From the NCBI GenBank assembly GCA_964016885.1, contig CAXHJY010001737.1, positions 1 to 64,000 of the forward strand: 64,000 bases of DNA, read 5' to 3'. The translations under genes and the position numbers were made by a program. The notes below the pieces were generated by a model. That model worked only from the letters and a program-made list of their open reading frames with translations, was not told the origin of the DNA and searched no databases. The DNA comes from Eledone cirrhosa (Eukaryota). Below are positions 2,141 to 17,606 of the stretch, piece after piece; positions within the stretch are counted from its first letter, which is position 1, and every line of letters starts with the position of its first letter.

Positions 2141-3057
<917 letters not shown>

Positions 3058-3863
3058 AAGGATTAGAATACTGGAGCGTGTTGGAGTTAAACACCCTCTT
3101 CGTGTTATAGAAATGACAGTAAAAGGTATAGCTCAATGCAGTTAAACAGAGCCAAAAAATTAAGAGAGTAAAACAAAGAATCCTTTAATACATCAAAAGT
3201 TTTTATTCTCCGACAATGTTTCGTCCTATTAAGGACTCATCAGGGCAATCAAAACAACAAGAAGTAATATCGGCAGATACAAGCCGGAAACTCTGAAGAA
3301 TATGGCAACTAACCTAAATCTAGCAACTAACCTAAATCTAAACAAATTTGGTTATATAGAGCAGGAATTATATATAACACAATGCAATAAACATAATACA
3401 TTATAATAATATACCTTTACCAACATTAAAATTACAAATTAAAAATCAAAAGGTACAATATATACATGTATATATGTGCGCACACACACACACATATATA
3501 ACAATACACCCATCTATGATCAACTACACAAATTAAGCCCTATTAGAAGTTTGAATATAAAAATAAGCATGATAAGAGTGAAAATAATACCAATACATCT
3601 ACCCAATATACATGAGGCAATGATATGATATAATTACAAGAGACACATATAATAAATAATAAACAATAAAATTATATAATTCAATATAATATAATAAAAT
3701 AGATAATCCCCGGTTAGTTTACAGAAACAATATAGATGTCACAATAAAATACAATGATAATACGTAAACAGTGTACTAACATTTACCATAAACAATGTAT
3801 ACAAATCGATTCATACTGGGTTACAGAGTAAATGAGGAAAAATAAATTATATAATACTCAAAA
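3058..3863 (-). repeat. Inverted pseudo-LTR/5' segment of the PLE
   Basis: Reverse complement of 4136-5056 with a ~130-bp internal deletion and a short gcaactaacctaaatcta duplication. Confidence 0.9.
3205..3249 (-). ncRNA. Minimal type I hammerhead ribozyme (inverted pLTR copy; stem I weakened)
   Basis: Minus strand reads attgcc CTGATGA gtcct-taat-aggac GAAA cattGTC ggagaat. Confidence 0.75.
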
Positions 3864-3864
3864 G

Positions 3865-4954
3865 ATTATTTTATGTCAATTTATAATATATTATATTATA
3901 TTGTATTGTAATATTGATCCTTATTACTTACTGTTCATTATATGTAACATTATGACATTTAAACTTTGTATATCATGTAAGATGTCTGTATATTTTGTAA
4001 TATTGTAATATTGATCCTTATTACTTACTGTTCATTATATGTAACATTATGATATTAGACTTTACATATCATGTAAGATGTCTGTATATATTTTTTCTGT
4101 ACCATCATAATTTTTACAGTACCATTATAGTGTTTTTTTGAGTATTATATAATTTATTTTTCCTCATTTACTCTGTAACCCAGTATGAATCGATTTGTAT
4201 ACATTGTTTATGGTAAATGTTAGTACACTGTTTACGTATTATCATTGTATTTTATTGACATCTATATTGTTTCTGTAAACTAACCGGGGATTATCTATTT
4301 TATTATATTATATTGAATTATATAATTTTATTGTTTATTATTTATTATATGTGTCTCTTGTAATTATATCATATTATTGCCTCATGTATATTGGGTAGAT
4401 GTATTGGTATTATTTTCACTCTTATTTTTCATGCTTATTTTTATATTCAAACTTCTAATAGGGCTTAATTTGTGTAGTTGATCATAGATGGGTGTATTGT
4501 TATATATGTGTGTGTGTGTGCGCACATATATGCATGTATATATTGTACCTTTTGATTTTTAATTTGTAATTTTAATGTTGGTAAAGGTATATTATTATAA
4601 TGTATTATGTTTATTGCATTGTGTTATATATAATTCCTGCTCTATATAACCAAATTTGTTTAGATTTAGGTTAGTTGCTTTGGACTATATTTGTAATATG
4701 GTTCTTAATGTTATCTACATCCTTAGTTATTCTTATTATTATATATTTTTATTTTTATTTTCATTTTTATTATCATATATTTTTGTAAAACTTTAGTGTA
4801 TGCACACTCCATATTCTTCAGAGTTTCCGGCTTGTATCTGCCGATATTACTTCTTGTTGTTTTGATTGCCCTGATGAGTCCTTAATAGGACGAAACATTG
4901 TCGGCTAATAAAAACTTTTGATGTATTAAAGGATTCTTTGTTTTACTCTCTTAA
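3865..4954 (+). repeat. 5' pseudo-LTR of the PLE
   Basis: Near-identical direct repeat of 8653-9781. Confidence 0.9.
4865..4909 (+). ncRNA. Minimal type I hammerhead ribozyme in 5' pLTR; predicted cleavage after C4902 (GUC)
   Basis: attgcc CTGATGA gtcct(taat)aggac GAAA c-att-GTC ggctaat; AATAAA overlaps its 3' end. Confidence 0.85.
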
Positions 4955-5132
4955 TTTTTTGGCTCTGTTTAACTGGATTGAGCTATACCGTTTACTGTCA
5001 TTTCTATAATACGAAGAGGGTGTTTAACTCCAACACGCTCCAGTATTCTAATCCTTGTAACTGCTCCCGACTGGTTGAGCTTACTCACATATATACTGGT
5101 ATTTTGGCCTTTATATATATTTATCTGACAGT

Positions 5133-7789
5133 ATGCTAACAAAGAGTTACCTGCCTTTATCTCTGAAAAATATTCCCACCCCCTCTAAGAATACTTACCA
5201 AAAAACTACTGATAGCTAGTGTTAACTCCTTTGTAAAAAGGATTAGATGGCGTGCATTCTACTACGATAATAATAAGAATAGGATGGACCCCAGGAATAG
5301 AACAAATTTTAATAACTATGGCTTCAAAACTTATAAGAGCCCACCACACAACATAGTTTTGAAAGTGACTTACTCTCTCTGGTCAAAAATGTTAGATTTA
5401 GGCCAAATAATAGACATAGAAATTATGATAATTTCGATAAGTTCCAGTCCAGACTTAAAAATATTGTTAAGGGTTTCGGTGAGAATAAGTCCATTCTTGT
5501 CCCGGCAGATAAGACTAAGAATCTATACTCCATGGACTATAGTACATACCGCGATTTTATTTATAAAGAGTTATATAGAAACTATAAAAAAACTACGCTT
5601 GAGAATTTGAACCACATCAATAGTGAGGGCCTTAGAATAGTCTCTGACCTCGGACTCGATAAGTATACCCAGCCATATTACCCTCGAGAACCGAGATTCA
5701 CACTTAAGGATCATAAGGTTGATTTTATTAGTAACCCCTCAGTTAGACTTATCTGTCCTTCTAAGTCGGATATAGCCATTATCAGTAAAAAAATCCTTGA
5801 CCTTATTATACCAGATGTTAGGGATAAGGTTAATTTTAACCTATGGGGGAACACTAGGGAAGTTATAGATTGGTTCTCTGGGATTAATAGACTTGAATCT
5901 AATAAGTTTATCCAATTCGATATTGATGCCTACTACACATCAATTTCACCCATCCTCCCCAATAAAGCCTTAATGTTGGCCATGAGAGTGTCCAGCCTTA
6001 CACGATCGCAGGTAGATATTATACTAGCAGCCCGTAAAACTATTATTAAATTTGAGGACACATTTTGGACCCGTAATTTCGACGTTACAATGGGTTCGAG
6101 TGATTCGGCCCAGGTTACTGATCTTGTTGGGTTGTTCCTCCTTAATGAACTATACGCTACCTTCCCGCACCTTATAGGCGGACTATATCGTGATGATGCA
6201 TTGTTTGTAATTAACTCTAGCACCAACAATGTAGAACATAATAAGAAGAAGCTTTATAAGTTTTTTAAAAGCTACAACCTTTCGATCACGATAGATAGAA
6301 ATGATAGAGCGGTTAACTTTTTAGATGTGACTTTGGACTTGGCCACTAATAGTTTTAAACCCTTCCATAAGCCTAATGAAATTCTTTCTTATGTTAGCCC
6401 CAACTCTAACCACCCTAAGTCTATGATAAACTCTATAATTAGGGGCGTATCTAATAGGATTTCCACACTATCTAAGGACATAAGAACATTTAATGAACAT
6501 GCGGAATACTACAATAATGCCCTAGCAAATTCAGGTCACTCTAGTAAAATAAATTATAATGATAGTAACCTTAGAAAGTGTCCGCTTACTCTTAATAATA
6601 ATAACATTATATCACATAACATGGCCATGAATGGGAGTAGCAAATATAGTAACCGTAGAATTTATATAGGTGTATCTGAACCCACCCATAAGTTAACCCA
6701 CCGGACTCGTAATAGCAAATATAATACCTCTAGGAGACAAGTCGAATCCCCTGTGCGCTCACGCATCGGTGTTGGTTTTGCTGGATCTTATTCTAATAAT
6801 GTTGCTCCTAGTGATCCTATCATTGGCCCTAATCCTCTTGAAGAGATTCCGGACAACAGCAGATCTACTGGAGGTAGAAACTATAATAGACATAACGAAA
6901 TTATGGCTGATTCTATGAATGTGGCTTCAACTAATCCTGATAGTAACCCTAGTCTCGACGGTGGGACATTTGATAGAGGTAGGGTCGGTAAGAATAAAAA
7001 TAAAAATAGAAGGCGATTAAATACTTATTTTAACCCGCCATATAATCAGGATGTATCAACTAATATCCCTAGGTCTTTCTTCACTATCTTAGAGAAAAAT
7101 TTCCCCCCTTCTCATAAATACCATGGTATTTTTAATAAAAATGTTATTAAACTCTCATTCTCTACCACCCCTAATATTAGTTCTCATTTAGCTAGCACTA
7201 ATAATAGGAAAATTAGGGATGGATTCTCCTCTCTACATACTACTAGTCTGAACGGATCTGACAATGCTTTACCACCAGAACAGTCCTTATCTAATAGAGG
7301 TCCTACGTGTAATACATCACCACTCGAGCCAACCAATAACACCCGGAAGTGCAATTGTAGAGTGAGTGCTAACTGCCCTCTAAATGGTAACTGCCTTTCT
7401 AAGAACATTGTCTACGCTTGCGAAGTTATAACTAATTCCTCTAATAGAACGTATATAGGATCTACTTCAAACACTTTTAAGACTAGGTTTAACTCTCATA
7501 TCTCTAACTTCAAACATGTTAGGTTTAAGAATTCTACCTCTTTAGCGCATTATATCTGGGATCTTATATACCATATAGCCTTAACTGGCGTTTAGTAGCA
7601 CGCTCTAACCACCTTTCTACACATAGTAAGTTTTGTAATCTCTGTATACTTGAGACACACTCTATTATTTTCTCTAGCGTATCCTTACTTAGAGAGTCTG
7701 AGATATTCTCTTCTTGCCCCCACGCCATTTCTAATTCTTATTTTTATTATAAACCCAAACGTTCTAGTAGTACAAATTGTACCCATTAG
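5133..7789 (+). pseudogene. PLE polyprotein: reverse transcriptase + C-terminal GIY-YIG endonuclease, disrupted by ~3 frameshifts
   Basis: N-terminal SLKNIP...KRIRWRAFY and ADKTKNLY in shifted frames; RT motifs FIQFDIDAYYTSI, FDVTMGSSDSAQ, GLYRDD; CNCRVSANCPLNGNC, IVY...YIGST..FKTRFNSH; shifted tail WRLV...CNLC..E...SSCPH ending at TAG 7789. The longest open part is 5532-7595. Confidence 0.9.
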
Positions 7790-8652
7790 CAGATATATTC
7801 CATTACTTAGTTTTTAGTTTAGGTTCTTTTGTTTGCCAACATTATTGTTATCATCATTATTACCATTGGTTTTTGATGACTCTTCATTCTAGCTCTCATA
7901 ATCATTTGGCTACTGTACCATATCTATGTTTTCACTATTACACCTTGTTAATATACATAAGATTACACGCTTTACGCCACTTACGTTATTCTATTATTAT
8001 CTTTATTTTTATTTTTATTATTAATTTTATTTTTAATTTTATTTTTATTCAGATTCATCTTTGGACAACCCCCCCCTCCCCCTCCCATGCGCACATAAAC
8101 TTATTGTCAACCCCTCCAGATTGACTATGATTATATTTAACCCCCCCCTCTTTTACGCTTCATTCTATTATTTATTATAGTATATCGACTATATTTTATG
8201 CCACTTCGCACCCTCCATACATTTCGTCAATTCTGTCCCCATTAGCCTACCTTAATTCTACTTAAGTCAGTTTTTTAGATATCGTTGCGTATATGATAGT
8301 AAAAAATGTTCATTCCTTTTTGTAAACATTTGTAATGAAACATTAAAGTTTATAAACTTTAATGACTTAAACTACAGCTAATATTATACTACCTTATTGG
8401 ATAGGTTTGATATTTTTAATATTAATTTATCAAATAGGGTTTTGAGTCAATTAAAATGATTGTTTTCCTTAGTGTTTACCTAATTTCTTAACCGCATGTG
8501 AGGCCTTAGTGTGTATATATTTGCTTTTGTTTTGTAATTTCCGGTTGATTATATTTATTTATTTATTTCATTCTATATTCTATTTACTATTCACTGTCTG
8601 GCTTTGCTTACACATCCACATATGTCTGTCTACTAACCTTGTAATTATAAGT

Positions 8653-9287
8653 ATTATTTTATGTCAATTTATAATATATTATATTATATTGTATTGTAAT
8701 ATTGATCCTTATTACTTATTGTTCATTATATGTAACATTATGACATTTAAACTTTATATATCATGTAAGATGTCTGTATATTTTGTAATATTGCTAATAT
8801 TGATCCTTATTACTTAATGTTCATTATATATAACATTATGATATTTAGACTTTACATATCATGTAAGATGTCTGTATATATTTTTTTCTGTACCATCATA
8901 ATTTTTACAGTACCATTATAGTGTTTTTTTGAGTATTATATAATTTATTTTTCCTCATTTACTCTGTAACCCAGTATGAATCGATTTGTATACATTGTTT
9001 ATGGTAAATGTTAGTACACTGTTTACGTATTATCATTGTATTTTATTGACATCTATATTGTTTCTGTAAACTAACCGGGGATTATCTATTTTATTATATT
9101 ATATTGAATTATATAATTTTATTGTTTATTATTTATTATATGTGTCTCTTGTAATTATATCATATCATTGCCTCATGTATATTGGGTAGATGTATTGGTA
9201 TTATTTTCACTCTTATCATGCTTATTTTTATATTCAAACTTCTAATAGGGCTTAATTTGTGTAGTTGATCATAGATGGGTGTATTGT

Positions 9288-9340
<53 letters not shown>

Positions 9341-9781
9341 GCGCACATATATACATGTATATATTGTACCTTTTGATTTTTAATTTGTAATTTTAATGTT
9401 GGTAAAGGTATATTATTATAATGTATTATGTTTATTGCATTGTGTTATATATAATTCCTGCTCTATATAACCAAATTTGTTTAGATTTAGGTTAGTTGCT
9501 TTGGACTATATTTGTAATATGGTTCTTAATGTTATCTACATCCTTAGTTATTCTTATTATTATATATTTTTATTATTTTTATTTTTATTTTCATTTTATT
9601 ATCATATTTTTGTAAAACTTTAGTGTATGCACACTCCATATTCTTCAGAGTTTCCGGCTTGTATCTGCCGATATTACTTCTTGTTGTTTTGATTGCCCTG
9701 ATGAGTCCTTAATAGGACGAAACATTGTCGGCTAATAAAAACTTTTGATGTATTAAATGATTCTTTGTTTTACTCTCTTAA
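8653..9781 (+). repeat. 3' pseudo-LTR of the PLE
   Basis: Direct repeat of 3865-4954, ending at the (TA)n junction. Confidence 0.9.
9692..9736 (+). ncRNA. Minimal type I hammerhead ribozyme in 3' pLTR; predicted cleavage after C9729
   Basis: Identical to 4865-4909. Confidence 0.85.
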
Positions 9782-10494
9782 TATATATATATATATAATA
9801 TATATATATATAATATATATATATATATATAATATATAATATATATATATAATATATAATATATATATATAATATATAATATATATATATAATATATATA
9901 TATAATATATAATATATATATATAATATATATATATAATATATATATATATAATATATAAATATAATATATATATATATAATATATATATATATAATATA
10001 TATATATATATATAATATATATATATAAATATATATATATATAATATATATATATATAAATATAATATATATAAATATAATATATATATATATATATATA
10101 TAATATATATAAATATAATATATATATATATAATATATATATATATATAATATATATATATATATATAATATATATATATAATATATATATATATATATA
10201 ATATATATATATATATAATATATATAATATATATATATATATATAATATATATATATAATATATATATATATATGTACATATATATATATATATATGTAC
10301 ATATATATATATATATCTATAATATATATATGTACATATATATATATGTACATATATATATATATGTATATATATAATATATATGTATATATATAATATA
10401 TATGTACATATATATATATAATATATATATACATATATATATATAATATATATATATATAATATATATATATATATATAATATATAAATATATC

Positions 10495-10541
<47 letters not shown>

Positions 10542-10596
10542 ATATATATAATATATAAATATATATATATATAATATATAAATATATATATATATA

Positions 10597-10674
<78 letters not shown>

Positions 10675-10688
10675 AATATATATTATAT
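9782..10688. repeat. (TA)n/(TAA) compound microsatellite, right flank of PLE
   Basis: Directly visible. Confidence 0.95.
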
Positions 10689-11086
10689 TGGACACTGACC
10701 AAGAGACTCACTCAGATGGTGGATGGGTGCTACACGAGAATGCTGAGGATGGCTCTGAACATTAATCAGTATACACTGAGGATGAAAAACTCAGAGCTGT
10801 ATGGGAGCATCTCAAAAGTCAGCTCAAAAGTGACACAGAGGAGACTGAGGTTGGCTGGACATGCTCACCGACATCCAGAGTTGACATTGCACTAGGTGCT
10901 CCTTTGGGAGCCCCTACATGGACACACTAGAAGAGGAAGACCAAGGTTAACATATGTTGATGCCCTAAGGACAGACACTGGTCTGTTGGAGATGCAGGAT
11001 ATGGCAGCGATAATGAGGGACAGAGACCGCTGGAGAGAACTCGTCCATGGATCTCGGGAATTTTACCCGCCTTAGATAGATAGATA
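10689..11086 (+). mobile_element. 5'-truncated non-LTR (RTE-type) LINE 3' end with (GATA)n tail
   Basis: Translates WTLTKRLTQMVDGCYTRMLRMAL...RRLRLAGHAHRH...RRGRPRLTYVD...RDRWRE with one internal stop; ends tagatagatagata. Confidence 0.8.
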
Positions 11087-12266: not shown

Positions 12267-12709
12267 TATTAGGTATAGGATTATTCAAGATGTAGTGATG
12301 GTTAATTACTACACTGGATATGGTTGACGTACGGTAAGAGGTTACTCTACGAGTTATGGAAGAATTGTTCAAGAAACTTAGTTCCTGGTCCTTCAGTATT
12401 CCGGAGTGTATATAAAGAATGAATAATAACAGGTAGACATCATAAAAATACTTGTGAATTTGCACGTAGCGGAACTAGGCTGCAGTACCACCGTGGAAAC
12501 ACTTGTAAGCACACGGAATAAATTACCTTTTTATGATGTCTACCTGTTATTATTCATTCTTTATATACACTCCGGAATACTGAAGGACCAGGAACTAAGT
12601 TTCTTGAACAATTCTTCCATAACTCGTAGAGTAACCTCTTACCGTACGTCAACCATATCCAGTGTAGTAATTAACCATCACTACATCTTGGATAATCCTA
12701 TACCTAATA
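12267..12709. repeat. Fold-back element, 182-bp arms 12267-12448 / 12528-12709
   Basis: Arms reverse-complement with 1 mismatch; ORFs 12166- and 12454+ translate near-identically. Confidence 0.9.
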
Positions 12710-12811
12710 ATCGCCTCCTACATAGTTGAGCAACCACACCGACATATATACCATCGAAAGATTTATCGTCATGTTTCATAATTAATTAAATAAATATCTT
12801 AACTAAATATA

Positions 12812-13460
12812 CTACATTTTAAATTTATATTTAAACGTTGAGTTCAATCTATGTCTGCAGCAACTGAATAAATTGCTTCTTAGATTAAGGGAATTTTTAG
12901 ATTTTAATATAAAGAATATCTCCTCCACGCAGAGGTCACATGTCTCAGATGAGGAATTAAAAGGAATCCCTCTTGAGACTATATTCCAAAACAACGAATA
13001 TCCAACATTATCATGTTTAAGTTGCCAGAGTAAGCCTGATAGTGAAATTGAAGATTTTTTGCCTGGATCTGTGAAAGAATTCTTATGATTATTATAGCGA
13101 AGTTTAAATTCTGTCGAGGTGGAACCAACATAGTTAAAAGAATTTAAGTCAGTTTTAACATTACAATTGTATATTATATTTTTAACTAAGCAATTGTTAT
13201 TTAACGGACATTTAGATTTATTTCTACAGTTGCAGTTGTTTAGTTGAATATTGTTTAGGCTATTATCGGTATTTTGGCTAGGTTTTAGATTCCTATTATT
13301 TATTCTGTTAATATTTTGTGCTAAGTTTTTGGTTGACGAGTAAGTTAATTTTATAGTATGTCTATTAAAAATTGAGTGATATTTATGTGTTCTAGGGAAG
13401 CGTTTGTCAAGAGCATTAAAAAATAGTTTAGCAATGTGGGTTTTAATATTTAGTGAGAAA
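12812..13460 (-). mobile_element. 5'-truncated second Penelope-like element: linker + intact GIY-YIG endonuclease C-terminus
   Basis: [61 protein letters not shown]; homologous to but diverged from the 5133-7789 element. Confidence 0.88.
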
Positions 13461-13643
13461 TATATATATTTAGTGAGAAATATATATATATATATATAAA
13501 TATGTATATATATAAATATGTATATATATATATGTATATATATAAATATATATATATATATGTATATACATATAGGTATATATATATGTATATATATGTA
13601 TATATATATGTGTGTGTAAGTATATATATATTTGTATATATAA

Positions 13644-14235
13644 CTCGATTCTTCTCTCCATTCGAACCCATTCATTCAATAACTTCTATGTCACACTATA
13701 TCATATTTTCACCATTCTATATCATATCTTTTCTCTAAAAATCATATTTTCCCTATCACCGCATTATCTCTATCGTATTTTCTTAAACAAAACAAATCTT
13801 GTATTTTCGTTTATTGTTAAATTATGCCCAATTTTTTCTCGATTCTTCTCTCCATTCGAACCCATTCATTCAATCACTTCTATGTCCTAATTTCACACTA
13901 TATCATATTTTCACCATTCTATATCATATCTTTTCTCTAAAGATCATATTTTCCCTATCACCGCATTTTCTCTATCGTATTTTCTTAAACAAAACAAATC
14001 TTGTATTTTCGTTTATTGTTAAATTATGCCCAATTTTTTCTCGATTCTTCTCTCCATTCGAACCCATTCATTCAATCACTTCTATGTCCTAATTTCACAC
14101 TATATCATATTTTAACCATTCTATATCATATCTTTTCTCTAAAAATCATATTTTCCCTATCACCGCATTTTCTCTATCGTATTTTCTTAAACAAAACAAA
14201 TCTTGTATTTTCGTTTATTGTTAAATTATGCCCAA
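13644..14235 (+). repeat. Three tandem ~202-bp monomers at the LINE 5' end
   Basis: ctcgattcttctctccattcgaaccc starts at 13644, 13838, 14040. Confidence 0.92.
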
Positions 14236-14591
14236 AATACGGCGATCTTATCTTAAACCTTACATTCTCGCTAACAACCCATCATCCCTCCCTCCCGCCC
14301 CCACGCACCACCATTATTACGTGGACCAATCATAAGTCAGAGGCCCATACTATCGCTTAACTGGTTGCTTTTCGATATGATGGATGGACTACGGAATTCT
14401 GGAGAGTTGAAGAGAGAAAAATGTGGACGCTCAGCGACAATGCCAAAGATAAAGCCAAATTCACCTCGTGGACGAGAATGCAAGCACTCCTCCTTGTTTC
14501 GGCCCAGGATGGCTAACATAACCCCCCCCCCCCCCCCGCGCCCCACCGCTCCCACCCTCCAAACGCAATCCAAAACTTCAGAGTTGGTACC

Positions 14592-17500
14592 ATGAATGTA
14601 GGCACCTTAAAGGGTCGCTCTAACGAGGTTGTAGAAATGCTTGAACGTAAGGTCGATGTTTGTTGTATTCAAGAGACCAGGTGGAGGGGAGGGTCGGCTA
14701 GATTCATCGTGGGTAAAGAACGATGCTATAAGCTTTTCTGGGTGGGAAATGACAATGGGTTGGGTGGGGTAGGAATCTTGGTAGCAGAAAAGTGGGAAGA
14801 TAAGATAATAGACGTAAATAGAGTGAACGACAGAATAATTAAAATAAGACTTGTCCTCAATAAAACTACGGTGACAGTAATATCTGCGTACGCACCCCAA
14901 TCCGGACTGCCCCACGCTATAAAAGACAGATTCTACGAGACACTGATGCTCGCTACCTCCCAAATAACCGACAGTGACTATATAGTTATTGCAGGCGACC
15001 TAAATGGTCACGTTGGACAACATTGTGACGGCTATGACGGAATCCATGGAGGCTATGGGTTCGGTACTAGAAATGAGGAAGGCTCCAGAATCCTGGAATT
15101 CTGCGACGCAAATAACTTAACTATCTGTAACACTAACTTCAAAAAACGAGACAATCACTTGATCACCTATAGATCGGGGGAACACACAAGCCAGGTAGAT
15201 TATATCCTTACCAGAAGACGTGACAGAGTGTCTGTTGTTAACACTAAATCCCACCCCCATGAAGAATTCACCTCCCAACATAGACTGATAATTAGCGACC
15301 TCATAGTCAGGACGAGACGTACTAGACAGCGGAAGAGGACTATCCTCAGGAGAAAAATATGGAAGCTAAAGGACCCCATAGCCAGAAATAAATTTCAAAG
15401 CATATTACTTGACGCTTTCGACAGTAAGGAAGAGCAATTAGAGTCGTATAATATAGAGGAACAGTGGGAATTCCTGAGAGCAAACCTGCTGACGGCGGCA
15501 GACGAAGTCTGTGGCTGGAGCAGGCCTGTAGGTAGGAGGAGAGTAACATGGTGGTGGAACAGTAAGGTGGAGGAGTCAATTAAGGCCAAAAAGCAGGCTT
15601 GGAAAGTATGGCGGGATGGGGGAAGTAGAGAAGACTATCAAGTGGCCAGGAGGGAAGCTAGGAGACAAGTGTACTTCGCAAGAAGGGAAGCAGAGGAAAG
15701 AAAGTTCAAGCATGTTCTACAACGTGAGGACCAAAAACGTGAGGTGTTCAGGATTGCCAGGCAATGTGTCAAGGAAAACCGTGATATTGTCGGGGAGAAG
15801 TGTGTACTTAACGATGATGGCATACTTGCCATCACCGACGCTGATAAGAAGGTAGCTTGGAAGTGTCACTACGAAAGGCTTCTAAATGAGAACAAATGGG
15901 AGAAAGACAGTCTCCCCCAGATCGATCCAATAGAGGGACCAGCAGTGTTAGTTGAAGGTAGTATAATAAGTAAGGCAATCAAAGATATGAAGACGGGTAA
16001 GGCGGCTGGGCCTTCGGAAATAGTTGCTGAGATGCTGAAGGCATCTGGTTCGGTGGGACACACCATGGTCACCCGGATAGTTAACCAAGTCGTACAGAAT
16101 GGGGTTGTTCCGAAGGAATGGCGTAGCAGCATCATCGTTAACTGCTATAAGGGAAAAGGAGATGCCCTAGATAGGAGTAACTATAGAGGCATTAAATTAA
16201 TCGACCAGGTCATGAAGGTCACGGAAAAAGTAATAGCGCAACTAATCAGAGAGAGAATTGATCTAGATGAAATGCAGTTCGGGTTTGTGTCAGGCAAAAG
16301 TACCACAGACGCTCTTTTCATTGTACGACAACTACAGGAGAAGTACCTAGCTAAAAGTAAACCCCTATACTTAGCTTTCGTCGACTTGGAGAAAGCCTTC
16401 GACAGAGTCCCCCGTTCCATTATCTGGTGGTCTCTTAGAAAACTAGGTGTTGACGAATGGCTTGTGAGAGCTATACAAGCCATGTATAAAGAAACAGTCA
16501 GTAAGGTTAGAATTAACAACGAATATAGTGAAGAGTTTAGCGTAAAAGTTGGTGTCCATCAGGGCTCTGTTCTTAGCCCCCTACTATTTATTATTGCCCT
16601 TCAGGCTATAACAGAGGAGTTCAAGACCGGCTGCCCATGGGAACTCCTATACGCAGATGATCTAACGCTCATAGCTGAATCAATGACCGAACTAGAGAAG
16701 AAATTCCAAACGTGGAAGCACGGCCTAGAATCAAAAGGCCTTAAAATTAACCTGGCTAAGACTAAAGTTCTAGTTTGTAGGAAAGAAAATAAGGCGGCGG
16801 TCCCATCGGGGAAATGGCCATGCTCAGTGTGTAGGAAAGGCGTAGGTAGAAACTCCATTTTATGTCCCAAATGCAAAGTATGGGTGCATAAAAGATGTAG
16901 TGGGATCACAGGTAAGCTAACTAAGAACATAGATCTTACATGTGGCCAGTGCTCTGGTGCAATAAGTAGCAGCAAGTGCCCACAAAATACTAGCTCCTTC
17001 AACTGCGCAGAGGGTTCTATAGAAATAGTGGACAGCTTCCGTTATCTGGGTGACAAAATCAGCAGTGGGGGAGGGTGCTCTGAAAGTACAGTAGCTAGAG
17101 TCAGAACTGGATGGAAAAAGTTCAGAGAGCTTATACCACTATTAGCCGCTAGAGGGTTCTCCCTAAAAATGAAAGGCAGGTTATACGATGCCTGCATACG
17201 AACAGCAATGCTGCATGGCAGTGAGACCTGGGCATTGTGTGCAGAGGATATACGCAGACTAGAGAGGAACGAAGCTTGCATGCTCCGCTGGATGTGCAAT
17301 AGTAATATACGTGAACGGCAAAGCATAAACGAACTAAGGAAAAAATTAGAAATAAGAGGGATCAGATGTTGTTTACTCGAGAGAAGGCTACGTTGGTACG
17401 GTCACGTGATGCGCATGAAAGACGACAGCTGTATAACAAAGTGCAGGGCAATAAAGATAGACGGTAGCCACGGAGTAGGCAGACCCAGAAAAACATGGGA

Positions 17501-17606
17501 CGAGCTGATAAATTCCGACCTCACACGCTTACACCTCTCCAAGACAATGTCACTGGACCGAGACCTTTGGCGGTACTCAGTAATAGAGAAGACCCGCCTT
17601 ACCTAA
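14592..17606 (+). CDS. RTE LINE ORF: APE endonuclease + reverse transcriptase + PHD-like Cys/His finger
   Basis: NVGTL, CCIQETRW, GDLNGHVG, VDYIL, SQHR (APE); YRGIKL, QFGF, FVDLEKAFDRV, GVHQGSVLSPLLF, LLYADD, YLG (RT); uninterrupted 1004 aa. The true start is probably upstream (FRVGT precedes the ATG). Confidence 0.93.
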   Translation: MNVGTLKGRSNEVVEMLERKVDVCCIQETRWRGGSARFIVGKERCYKLFWVGNDNGLGGVGILVAEKWEDKIIDVNRVNDRIIKIRLVLNKTTVTVISAYAPQSGLPHAIKDRFYETLMLATSQITDSDYIVIAGDLNGHVGQHCDGYDGIHGGYGFGTRNEEGSRILEFCDANNLTICNTNFKKRDNHLITYRSGEHTSQVDYILTRRRDRVSVVNTKSHPHEEFTSQHRLIISDLIVRTRRTRQRKRTILRRKIWKLKDPIARNKFQSILLDAFDSKEEQLESYNIEEQWEFLRANLLTAADEVCGWSRPVGRRRVTWWWNSKVEESIKAKKQAWKVWRDGGSREDYQVARREARRQVYFARREAEERKFKHVLQREDQKREVFRIARQCVKENRDIVGEKCVLNDDGILAITDADKKVAWKCHYERLLNENKWEKDSLPQIDPIEGPAVLVEGSIISKAIKDMKTGKAAGPSEIVAEMLKASGSVGHTMVTRIVNQVVQNGVVPKEWRSSIIVNCYKGKGDALDRSNYRGIKLIDQVMKVTEKVIAQLIRERIDLDEMQFGFVSGKSTTDALFIVRQLQEKYLAKSKPLYLAFVDLEKAFDRVPRSIIWWSLRKLGVDEWLVRAIQAMYKETVSKVRINNEYSEEFSVKVGVHQGSVLSPLLFIIALQAITEEFKTGCPWELLYADDLTLIAESMTELEKKFQTWKHGLESKGLKINLAKTKVLVCRKENKAAVPSGKWPCSVCRKGVGRNSILCPKCKVWVHKRCSGITGKLTKNIDLTCGQCSGAISSSKCPQNTSSFNCAEGSIEIVDSFRYLGDKISSGGGCSESTVARVRTGWKKFRELIPLLAARGFSLKMKGRLYDACIRTAMLHGSETWALCAEDIRRLERNEACMLRWMCNSNIRERQSINELRKKLEIRGIRCCLLERRLRWYGHVMRMKDDSCITKCRAIKIDGSHGVGRPRKTWDELINSDLTRLHLSKTMSLDRDLWRYSVIEKTRLT

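What the first reader, a model, noticed from the sequence alone, without database searches (positions are those of the whole stretch)
4865..9736. Minimal hammerhead ribozymes in both pseudo-LTRs of a Penelope-like element
Identical motifs at 4865-4909 and 9692-9736 have an intact core (CUGAUGA, GAAA, GUC), a 5-bp stem II with UAAU loop and a very short stem III. The stem III sequence ACAUUGU is quasi-palindromic. That fits the established dimeric activity mode of PLE minimal hammerheads, in which two tandem copies pair. Cleavage at both sites would release a ~4.8-kb unit-length RNA (4903-9729). AATAAA follows immediately.
Basis: partly seen in the sequence, partly recalled or inferred. Interest (0 to 1): 0.72.

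Follow-up and report, generated by a model that had tools for sequence, protein, structure and literature searches.

The report
Hammerhead pair in Hydra-clade Penelope element
This is a broken copy of a known kind of jumping gene that carries three copies of a small hammerhead RNA motif, predicted to cut only in pairs, and the layout of its sister copies suggests that the element is likely copied from one looped RNA, a step that has been proposed before and is untested here.

Summary
Confirmed, and a known arrangement. Identical type I hammerhead motifs sit at 4865-4909 and 9692-9736. The element is a frameshifted copy of a Hydra-clade Penelope-like retroelement (RWR, DKT, CxCX5C, C-terminal GIY-YIG, (TA)n targets); the genome holds 1018 exact copies of the motif. 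Hydra-clade hammerheads are published, one from an octopus (PMC8557442). The motif looks selected: 1 of 45 sites varies between subfamilies against 12 of 55 in the flank. Stem III is predicted to form only between two copies. A released linear 4.8-kb RNA is not the simple template: 96 of 100 copies read through the cut site. Copies end 53 or 157 nt beyond it, and 56 of 56 informative two-armed insertions pair one end of each kind. The two pLTRs of an insertion differ by 1.1%, arms primed together by 0.9%, other copies by 7.9%. Best reading: a ligated circle primed twice (0.5); strand transfer on an uncut RNA is the main rival. Cleavage and expression are untested. This scan noted similar two-armed layouts before, on other DNA.

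The parts
3055..3863 (-). Inverted arm: 5'-truncated copy equal to element positions 4136-5059, with a gap at about 4680-4808; carries the 104-nt tail and ends in (TA)n
3205..3249 (-). Third hammerhead motif; core intact, third stem I pair broken; predicted cut after 3212
3865..4955 (+). 5' pseudo-LTR (second pass through the 3' UTR)
   Evidence: 94.9% identity to 8653-9782, gaps included; 0.54% substitutions
4865..4909 (+). Type I hammerhead motif 1; predicted cut after 4902
4907..4912 (+). AATAAA, a candidate poly(A) signal overlapping outer stem I (also at 9734-9739); function untested
4956..5059 (+). 104-nt tail between the two fixed 3' end sites of the family (4955 and 5059), inferred reverse-transcription start sites
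5133..7789 (+). Broken RT plus GIY-YIG ORF of Hydra type; frameshifts near 5199, 5352 and 7562, in-frame deletions near 6073 and 7689
7790..8652 (+). Unique part of the long 3' UTR
8653..9782 (+). 3' pseudo-LTR; ends at the family's short end site and runs into (TA)n
9692..9736 (+). Type I hammerhead motif 2, identical to motif 1; predicted cut after 9729
2150..3058 (.). (TA)n-rich target microsatellite, left flank
9783..10690 (.). (TA)n-rich target microsatellite, right flank

Best explanation
This is a frameshifted copy of a Hydra-clade Penelope-like retroelement with a hammerhead motif in each pseudo-LTR and in an inverted arm; the two hammerheads of one transcript are predicted to pair, would cut and rejoin a 4.8-kb unit into a circle, and the element's protein likely copies that circle from two fixed sites into both ends of a break in (TA)n. 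Shown: the motifs, the clade motifs, the two fixed 3' ends 53 and 157 nt past the cut site, their one-of-each pairing in two-armed insertions, seamless read-through of the cut site, and near-identity of the two pLTRs within an insertion. Inferred: transcription from the 5' pLTR, dimer folding (likely with help from protein or Mg2+), cleavage, ligation, two priming events on one RNA, and copying past one full lap, which rebuilds the 5' pLTR and so the second hammerhead.
For: Selection on the motif: among 100 copies picked by a sequence downstream of the cut, 1 of 45 hammerhead sites is polymorphic above 8%, and that site is C/U at the tolerant cut position, against 12 of 55 sites in the upstream flank (Fisher p 0.005; threshold chosen by me, sites not independent). 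A sister family in the genome swaps the first stem I pair C-G to U-A and keeps the ACA-N-UGU palindrome (2 loci read). Dimer need: monomer stem III costs 2.6 kcal/mol, pair probability 0.0003; the double hammerhead scores -19.1 against 2 x -4.7. One RNA, two primers: 56 of 61 two-armed insertions pair a 4955 end with a 5059 end, none pairs like with like, 5 are uninformative; 5 of 11 short tailed arms starting after 4900 begin at 4952-4955, the other start site. Intact junction: 96 of 100 copies cross the cut site. pLTRs rebuilt from one copy: median difference 1.10% within 14 insertions, 0.90% between 34 arm pairs (p 0.43), 7.87% between insertions; own partner nearest in 11 of 14. Of 40 long arms, 7 stop at 5040-5057 or 4952-4961 after one lap (windows chosen after seeing the data). 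The circle model is proposed in PMC4209133.
Against: No cleavage, ligation or circle is shown. Second-lap arms look capped: 1 of 22 runs more than 1600 nt past the cut against 39 of 131 first-lap arms (Fisher p 0.016), which fits a template with a fixed 5' end better than a free circle. No insertion with three tandem hammerheads was seen in the 52 regions. Truncations do not pile up at the cut: 1 of 37 (TA)n junctions lies at 4903 and none of 40 long arms. The active dimer is not the lowest-energy fold (-24.0 for an off-path dimer, -10.6 for an off-path monomer). In the green anole PLE, cleavage was not needed for insertion in vitro and no RNA-seq reads ended at the cut (PMC11167929). Naiad PLEs spread without canonical hammerheads (PMC8557442). 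In 3 of 14 insertions another copy's pLTR was closer than the own partner.
Confidence: 0.5

Rival explanations
1. The template would be an uncut linear transcript. Priming occurs at the two sites near its 5' end, the cDNA reaches the RNA start and transfers by homology to the 3' pLTR, as in LTR elements. The hammerhead pair would hold the two pLTRs together or trim and turn over RNA, without making the template.
For: Explains the matched pLTRs, the intact junctions, the one-of-each ends and also the cap on second-lap length. Unprocessed RNA was the main substrate in vitro (PMC11167929). An internal promoter in the pLTR is known for Drosophila Penelope (PMC2377424).
Against: One second-lap arm reaches 2252 nt, beyond the cap. 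Gives a weaker reason for the strong conservation of the catalytic core. Tandem hammerhead arrays of about 466 nt with an inverted arm in the same genome suggest that some PLE machinery copies many laps.
Confidence: 0.3
2. Plain linear read-through: a long uncut transcript of a partial tandem is primed in its downstream pLTR, each pLTR is inherited from the matching pLTR of the parent, and the hammerhead only limits transcript length.
For: Needs no ligation; fits the cap on second-lap length and the lack of truncations at the cut.
Against: Predicts that 5' and 3' pLTRs drift apart over generations, but they differ no more than arms primed together, and only one non-microsatellite difference recurred between insertions. 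Parents that end at 4955 lack a downstream 5059 site. An AATAAA upstream of both sites would, if used, remove them from the 3' end.
Confidence: 0.12
3. The motif is an inert or parasitic passenger in the 3' UTR with no part in the element's cycle.
For: Score below Rfam's gathering threshold; off-path folds are more stable; PMC8557442 raises parasitism as a possibility.
Against: Core and stems stay fixed while the flank varies; compensatory change in a sister family; same position and palindromic helix III in the 26 Hydra rows of File S2.
Confidence: 0.08

Closest known systems
Hydra clade of Penelope-like elements (Craig et al. 2021, PMC8557442; seen: passages, sections 6 and 11, supplement part 2 of 56 with the Hydra sheet of File S1 and File S2, and a term search of the supplement)
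   Same: RW(R/K), DKT, CxCX5C linker, C-terminal GIY-YIG, CxxC and CxH around the E and N residues, (TA)n targets, hammerhead near the 3' end with a palindromic helix III, inverted 5'-truncated arm and a tail at one end. An Octopus bimaculoides family (Hydra-1_Obim, 2507 bp) with a hammerhead is listed.
   Different: Unit about 4.8 kb, where listed families are 1.1-3.0 kb. ORF 897 aa against a median of 709 in 120 homologues, with extra residues between RT and endonuclease. 3' UTR about 2 kb. Tail 104 nt rather than 30-40. Helix III palindrome of 7 nt, where most listed ones have 9.
PLE hammerheads (Cervera and de la Pena 2014, PMC4209133; seen: parts 1-2 of 4 of the text)
   Same: Type I hammerheads in both pLTRs, palindromic helix III region, dimer requirement, motifs also in opposite-strand pairs, proposed circular template for more-than-unit copies.
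   Different: Keeps a short helix III and has no extra base before stem II, so it is not their strict min-HHR. The motif is nearly invariant here, while they report high variability.
PAc Poseidon element of the green anole (Frangieh et al. 2024, PMC11167929; seen: parts 1-2 of 4 of the text)
   Same: Two internal reverse-transcription start sites that bound the tail, downstream of a hammerhead; both DNA strands cut and extended; AT-rich targets.
   Different: Other clade; start sites inside the ORF, whereas here they are 177 and 73 nt upstream of the start codon. They saw no strand difference in start site; here the two ends of an insertion always use different sites.
Adineta vaga EN+ Penelope elements (Arkhipova et al. 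2013, PMC3846280; seen: passages)
   Same: Two direct pLTRs plus one inverted pLTR, tail on one inverted pLTR, long inserts between RT and endonuclease.
   Different: They propose self-priming on an antisense template. The fixed one-of-each ends here fit priming by both DNA ends on a sense template more simply (inference).

Membership tests
Type I hammerhead ribozyme | Core CUGANGA, GAAA and NUH in order, with stems I and II | tested here: met
   stem I pair probability about 0.9, stem II 0.99
Type I hammerhead ribozyme | Rfam RF00163 gathering score (34 bits) | tested here: not met
   31.7 bits, E 6.8e-5; the shortfall lies in stems I and III, so the filing rests on the structural definition, not on Rfam's curated cut-off
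Type I hammerhead ribozyme | Stem III stable in a single copy | tested here: not met
   pair probability 0.0003; expected for dimer-type motifs
Type I hammerhead ribozyme | Self-cleavage at the NUH site | not testable with these tools
   needs in vitro transcription or raw RNA reads
Type I hammerhead ribozyme | Conservation or covariation of stems | tested here: met
   1 of 45 variable sites against 12 of 55; one compensatory stem I pair in a sister family; no covariation within the family, which is nearly invariant
min-HHR in the strict sense (PMC4209133) | No helix III or loop 3; unpaired base between positions 9 and 10.1 | tested here: not met
   a 2-bp helix III with an AUU loop can be drawn, and G10.1 follows the core directly
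Penelope-like element, EN+ | Single ORF with RT and C-terminal GIY-YIG endonuclease | tested here: met
   YRDD and VY..YIG..R..H in natural open copies; Pfam GIY-YIG only weak, E 0.0027, below cut-off, and no Pfam RT hit
Penelope-like element, EN+ | pLTRs, inverted 5'-truncated arm, tail at one end | tested here: met
Hydra clade | RWK-type motif and DKT in place of DKG | tested here: met
   RWR and DKT in open copies; RW[RK] in 113 and DKT in 109 of 120 homologues
Hydra clade | CxCX5C linker; CCHH absent; CxxC and CxH near the C terminus | tested here: met
   read from the translations; CxCX5C in 107 of 120 homologues
Hydra clade | Insertion into (TA)n | tested here: met
   172 of 182 fixed ends are followed by a TA run
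Hydra clade | Generally short (<3 kb); a tendency in the paper, not a diagnostic motif | tested here: not met
   unit 4671-4938 nt in 14 insertions
Hydra clade | Placement in an RT tree with named Hydra families | not tested
   no named reference proteins were held; the homologues carry no informative names

The most novel reading that the evidence does not exclude
An autonomous 4.8-kb Penelope-like element goes through a hammerhead-made circular RNA that is primed twice, once by each end of the DNA break, at two fixed sites 104 nt apart. This would explain at once the tail at one end, the inverted arm and the rebuilding of pseudo-LTRs, for which PMC2377424 saw no obvious mechanism.
Probability: 0.45. 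Interest if true: 0.65.

Novelty: new member of a known kind. Interest (0 to 1): 0.33.

Why it matters
The hammerheads themselves are ordinary for this class of element. The value lies in the family: it is young, with at least 1018 identical motifs and several natural copies with open 897-aa frames. Its copies give counts on an open question, namely how Penelope-like elements rebuild their pseudo-LTRs and what the ribozyme is for. The counts rule out a cut linear RNA as the simple template and argue against plain inheritance of each pLTR. That leaves two testable routes, a ligated circle or strand transfer on an uncut RNA.

Tried and rejected
Expression: no RNA holder listed, so no reads were laid; this says nothing on expression. 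Rfam at gathering threshold: 0 matches in the window. The microRNA and snoRNA hits lie far below their gathering scores, most of them on TG/TA repeats, and were rejected. Pile-up of truncations inside the palindrome: 20 of 37 (TA)n junctions fall at 4893-4902 (nominal p 0.007, two likely duplicates kept, only the first 100 of 254 matches seen). I do not count it as evidence, because junctions also pile up at other TA-like words such as 4882-4883 and 4906-4908, so microhomology can explain it. The first pLTR comparison was inflated by alignments running through inversion junctions and was replaced, where 2 of 16 insertions dropped out for lack of a motif pair. For one search, 2 of 24 second-lap rows were dropped (one does not reach the cut, one is a duplicate locus); chaining across subfamily indels may shorten some arms. 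One search missed some known long arms, so its count of arms passing 4810 is a lower bound. One search failed for lack of coordinates and was redone. Naiad/Chlamys rejected (endonuclease is C-terminal); Neptune, Nematis and Poseidon rejected on DKT, CxCX5C and the missing CCHH. The primary paper on dimer cleavage of small PLE hammerheads (PMC5785218) is not held; I saw only its title and a summary in a review (PMC6765202, passages). Searches for a printed two-primer or circle test in PLEs: 'Penelope, twin priming, inverted, tail' gave 1 unrelated review; searches listed no paper whose title or abstract start reports such a test; I read only some of those listed. Subscription papers and 55 of 56 parts of the Craig supplement (its Hydra alignments among them) were not read and may bear on clade placement and novelty. 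The host lineage was not tested.
Full report
1. Observation. The two motifs are present and identical at 4865-4909 and 9692-9736. Each has stem I (GCC/GGC, extended by AUU/AAU around a bulge), CUGAUGA, stem II GUCCU/AGGAC with a UAAU loop, GAAA, ACAUUGU and a GUC triplet. A 32-nt pattern finds three matches in the window and none in 100 shuffles; the third is at 3212-3243 on the minus strand. Rfam Hammerhead_1 scores the copies 31.7, 31.7 and 29.6 bits, under the gathering score of 34. The genome holds 1018 exact 38-nt copies and none of the reversed control.

2. Anatomy. The insertion runs from 3055 to 9782 between (TA)n tracts. It has an inverted arm (3863 to 3055, equal to 4136-5059 with one gap), a 5' pLTR (3865-4955), an ORF (5133-7789), a long 3' UTR and a 3' pLTR (8653-9782). 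The ORF of this copy has three frameshifts. Natural copies elsewhere have open 897-aa frames with RWR, DKT, YRDD, CxCX5C, a GIY-YIG core without CCHH, and CxxC and CxH near the C terminus. These are the diagnostic motifs of the Hydra clade in PMC8557442 (section 11). That paper's supplement lists Hydra hammerheads with palindromic helix III, among them one from Octopus bimaculoides. 335 proteins match at E 1e-20 or better; of the 120 listed, 107-113 carry each of the three motifs RW[RK], DKT and CxCX5C. No tree with named families was built.

3. Is the ribozyme maintained? I took the first 100 of 1994 genomic matches to a sequence downstream of the cut, so they were not chosen for an intact hammerhead; all lie on one contig. 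Above an 8% minor fraction, 1 of 45 hammerhead sites varies, against 12 of 55 upstream sites (Fisher p 0.005). The one variable site is C/U at the cut position, which hammerheads tolerate (my knowledge). A relaxed pattern gives 13592 matches against 206 for the control. One sister family changes the first stem I pair from C-G to U-A and keeps the palindrome; no PLE ORF was found beside the 2 loci read. In the monomer stem III is unfavourable (-4.7 with it, -7.3 without; pair probability 0.0003). The double hammerhead scores -19.1, but off-path folds are lower still. So a dimer is needed and is probably not enough alone, in line with low dimer activity (PMC4209133) and protein-assisted cleavage (PMC11167929).

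4. What the copies say about the template. In 157 loci of contig C1, 199 arms were mapped: 101 end near 4955, 81 near 5059, 14 run on into the ORF and 3 end elsewhere; 172 of the 182 fixed ends are followed by a TA run. Both sites lie downstream of the cut, by 53 and 157 nt. 96 of 100 copies cross the cut site, and positions 4900, 4903 and 4904 never vary. One of 37 (TA)n junctions and none of 40 long arms start at 4903. A cut linear 4903-9729 RNA is therefore not the simple template. Of 125 insertions, 61 are two-armed; 56 pair a 4955 end with a 5059 end, none pairs like with like, and 5 cannot be scored. The other 64 show one arm or a tandem within the stretch fetched. Five of 11 short tailed arms begin at 4952-4955, as if stopped by the other primer. 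A tail at one end is known (PMC8557442; PMC3846280), and so are two start sites (PMC11167929). The strict pairing suggests two priming events on one RNA (inference).

5. pLTR rebuilding. In 14 insertions with both pLTRs the pair differs by a median of 1.10%; 34 arm pairs differ by 0.90% (p 0.43); pLTRs of different insertions differ by 7.87%; the own partner is nearest in 11 of 14. Both pLTRs thus likely come from one RNA segment at each insertion. A hammerhead-ligated circle does this, as proposed in PMC4209133, and so does homology-guided strand transfer. Against a free circle: 1 of 22 second-lap arms exceeds 1600 nt, against 39 of 131 first-lap arms, and no triple tandem was seen. For it: 7 of 40 long arms stop at the two start sites after one lap (windows chosen after the fact), one second lap reaches 2252 nt, and the core is conserved. 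I put the circle at 0.5, strand transfer at 0.3, plain linear inheritance at 0.12 and an inert motif at 0.08.

6. Comparison and novelty. It works like the published PLE hammerheads and meets every Hydra sequence motif tested. It differs in size (4.8-kb unit, 104-nt tail, 7-nt palindrome). It is not a min-HHR in the strict sense. The finding as written is a new member of a known kind. The counts on end pairing and pLTR identity were not found in print in the searches made, which cover open papers only. Earlier notes of this scan describe two-armed retrozymes with two fixed ends in this genome and a one-lap Hydra copy in another genome. They are unchecked and not independent support. My end-pairing reading was written down before I saw them; the circle arguments of paragraph 5 came after.

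7. Verdict. Observation confirmed; interpretation partly supported; cleavage, ligation and expression untested. Interest 0.33.

Noticed in passing
window 12812-13500, minus strand: 5'-truncated fragment of a second Hydra-type element (endonuclease region, 37% identity to the main family), with what looks like an inverted repeat in its 3' UTR near 12300-12720. My scan found no canonical hammerhead there.
   Followed up: partly
window 14517-17606, plus strand: Open 1029-aa frame with AP endonuclease, RT and a PHD-like finger: a non-LTR retrotransposon; RTE-like by recall, not tested.
   Followed up: partly
window 13688-14293: Three tandem copies of a 202-nt unit next to the second Hydra fragment.
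   Followed up: no
L231 and L232 (G000:C1:5737000-5754500): Array of about 31 hammerhead units of about 466 nt on one strand followed by an inverted copy, a retrozyme-like layout with a PLE-type inversion; its stem II shows a compensatory change (GUUG/CAAC against GAUG/CAUC) relative to L230.
   Followed up: partly
L228:5916 and L229:5860: Sister hammerhead family with a longer stem II and an ATTAAA at the same offset after the cut as this family's AATAAA, which hints at a conserved poly(A) signal.
   Followed up: partly
L052:871-3561: The open frame is about 190 aa longer than the median homologue, with the extra residues between RT and endonuclease; similar inserts are described in PMC3846280.
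   Followed up: partly
window 3892-4092 and 8680-8882: A duplication of about 100 nt inside each pLTR.
   Followed up: no
L130 (G000:C1:44241394-44244422): A very short two-armed insertion in which both arms begin at the stem III palindrome.
   Followed up: partly
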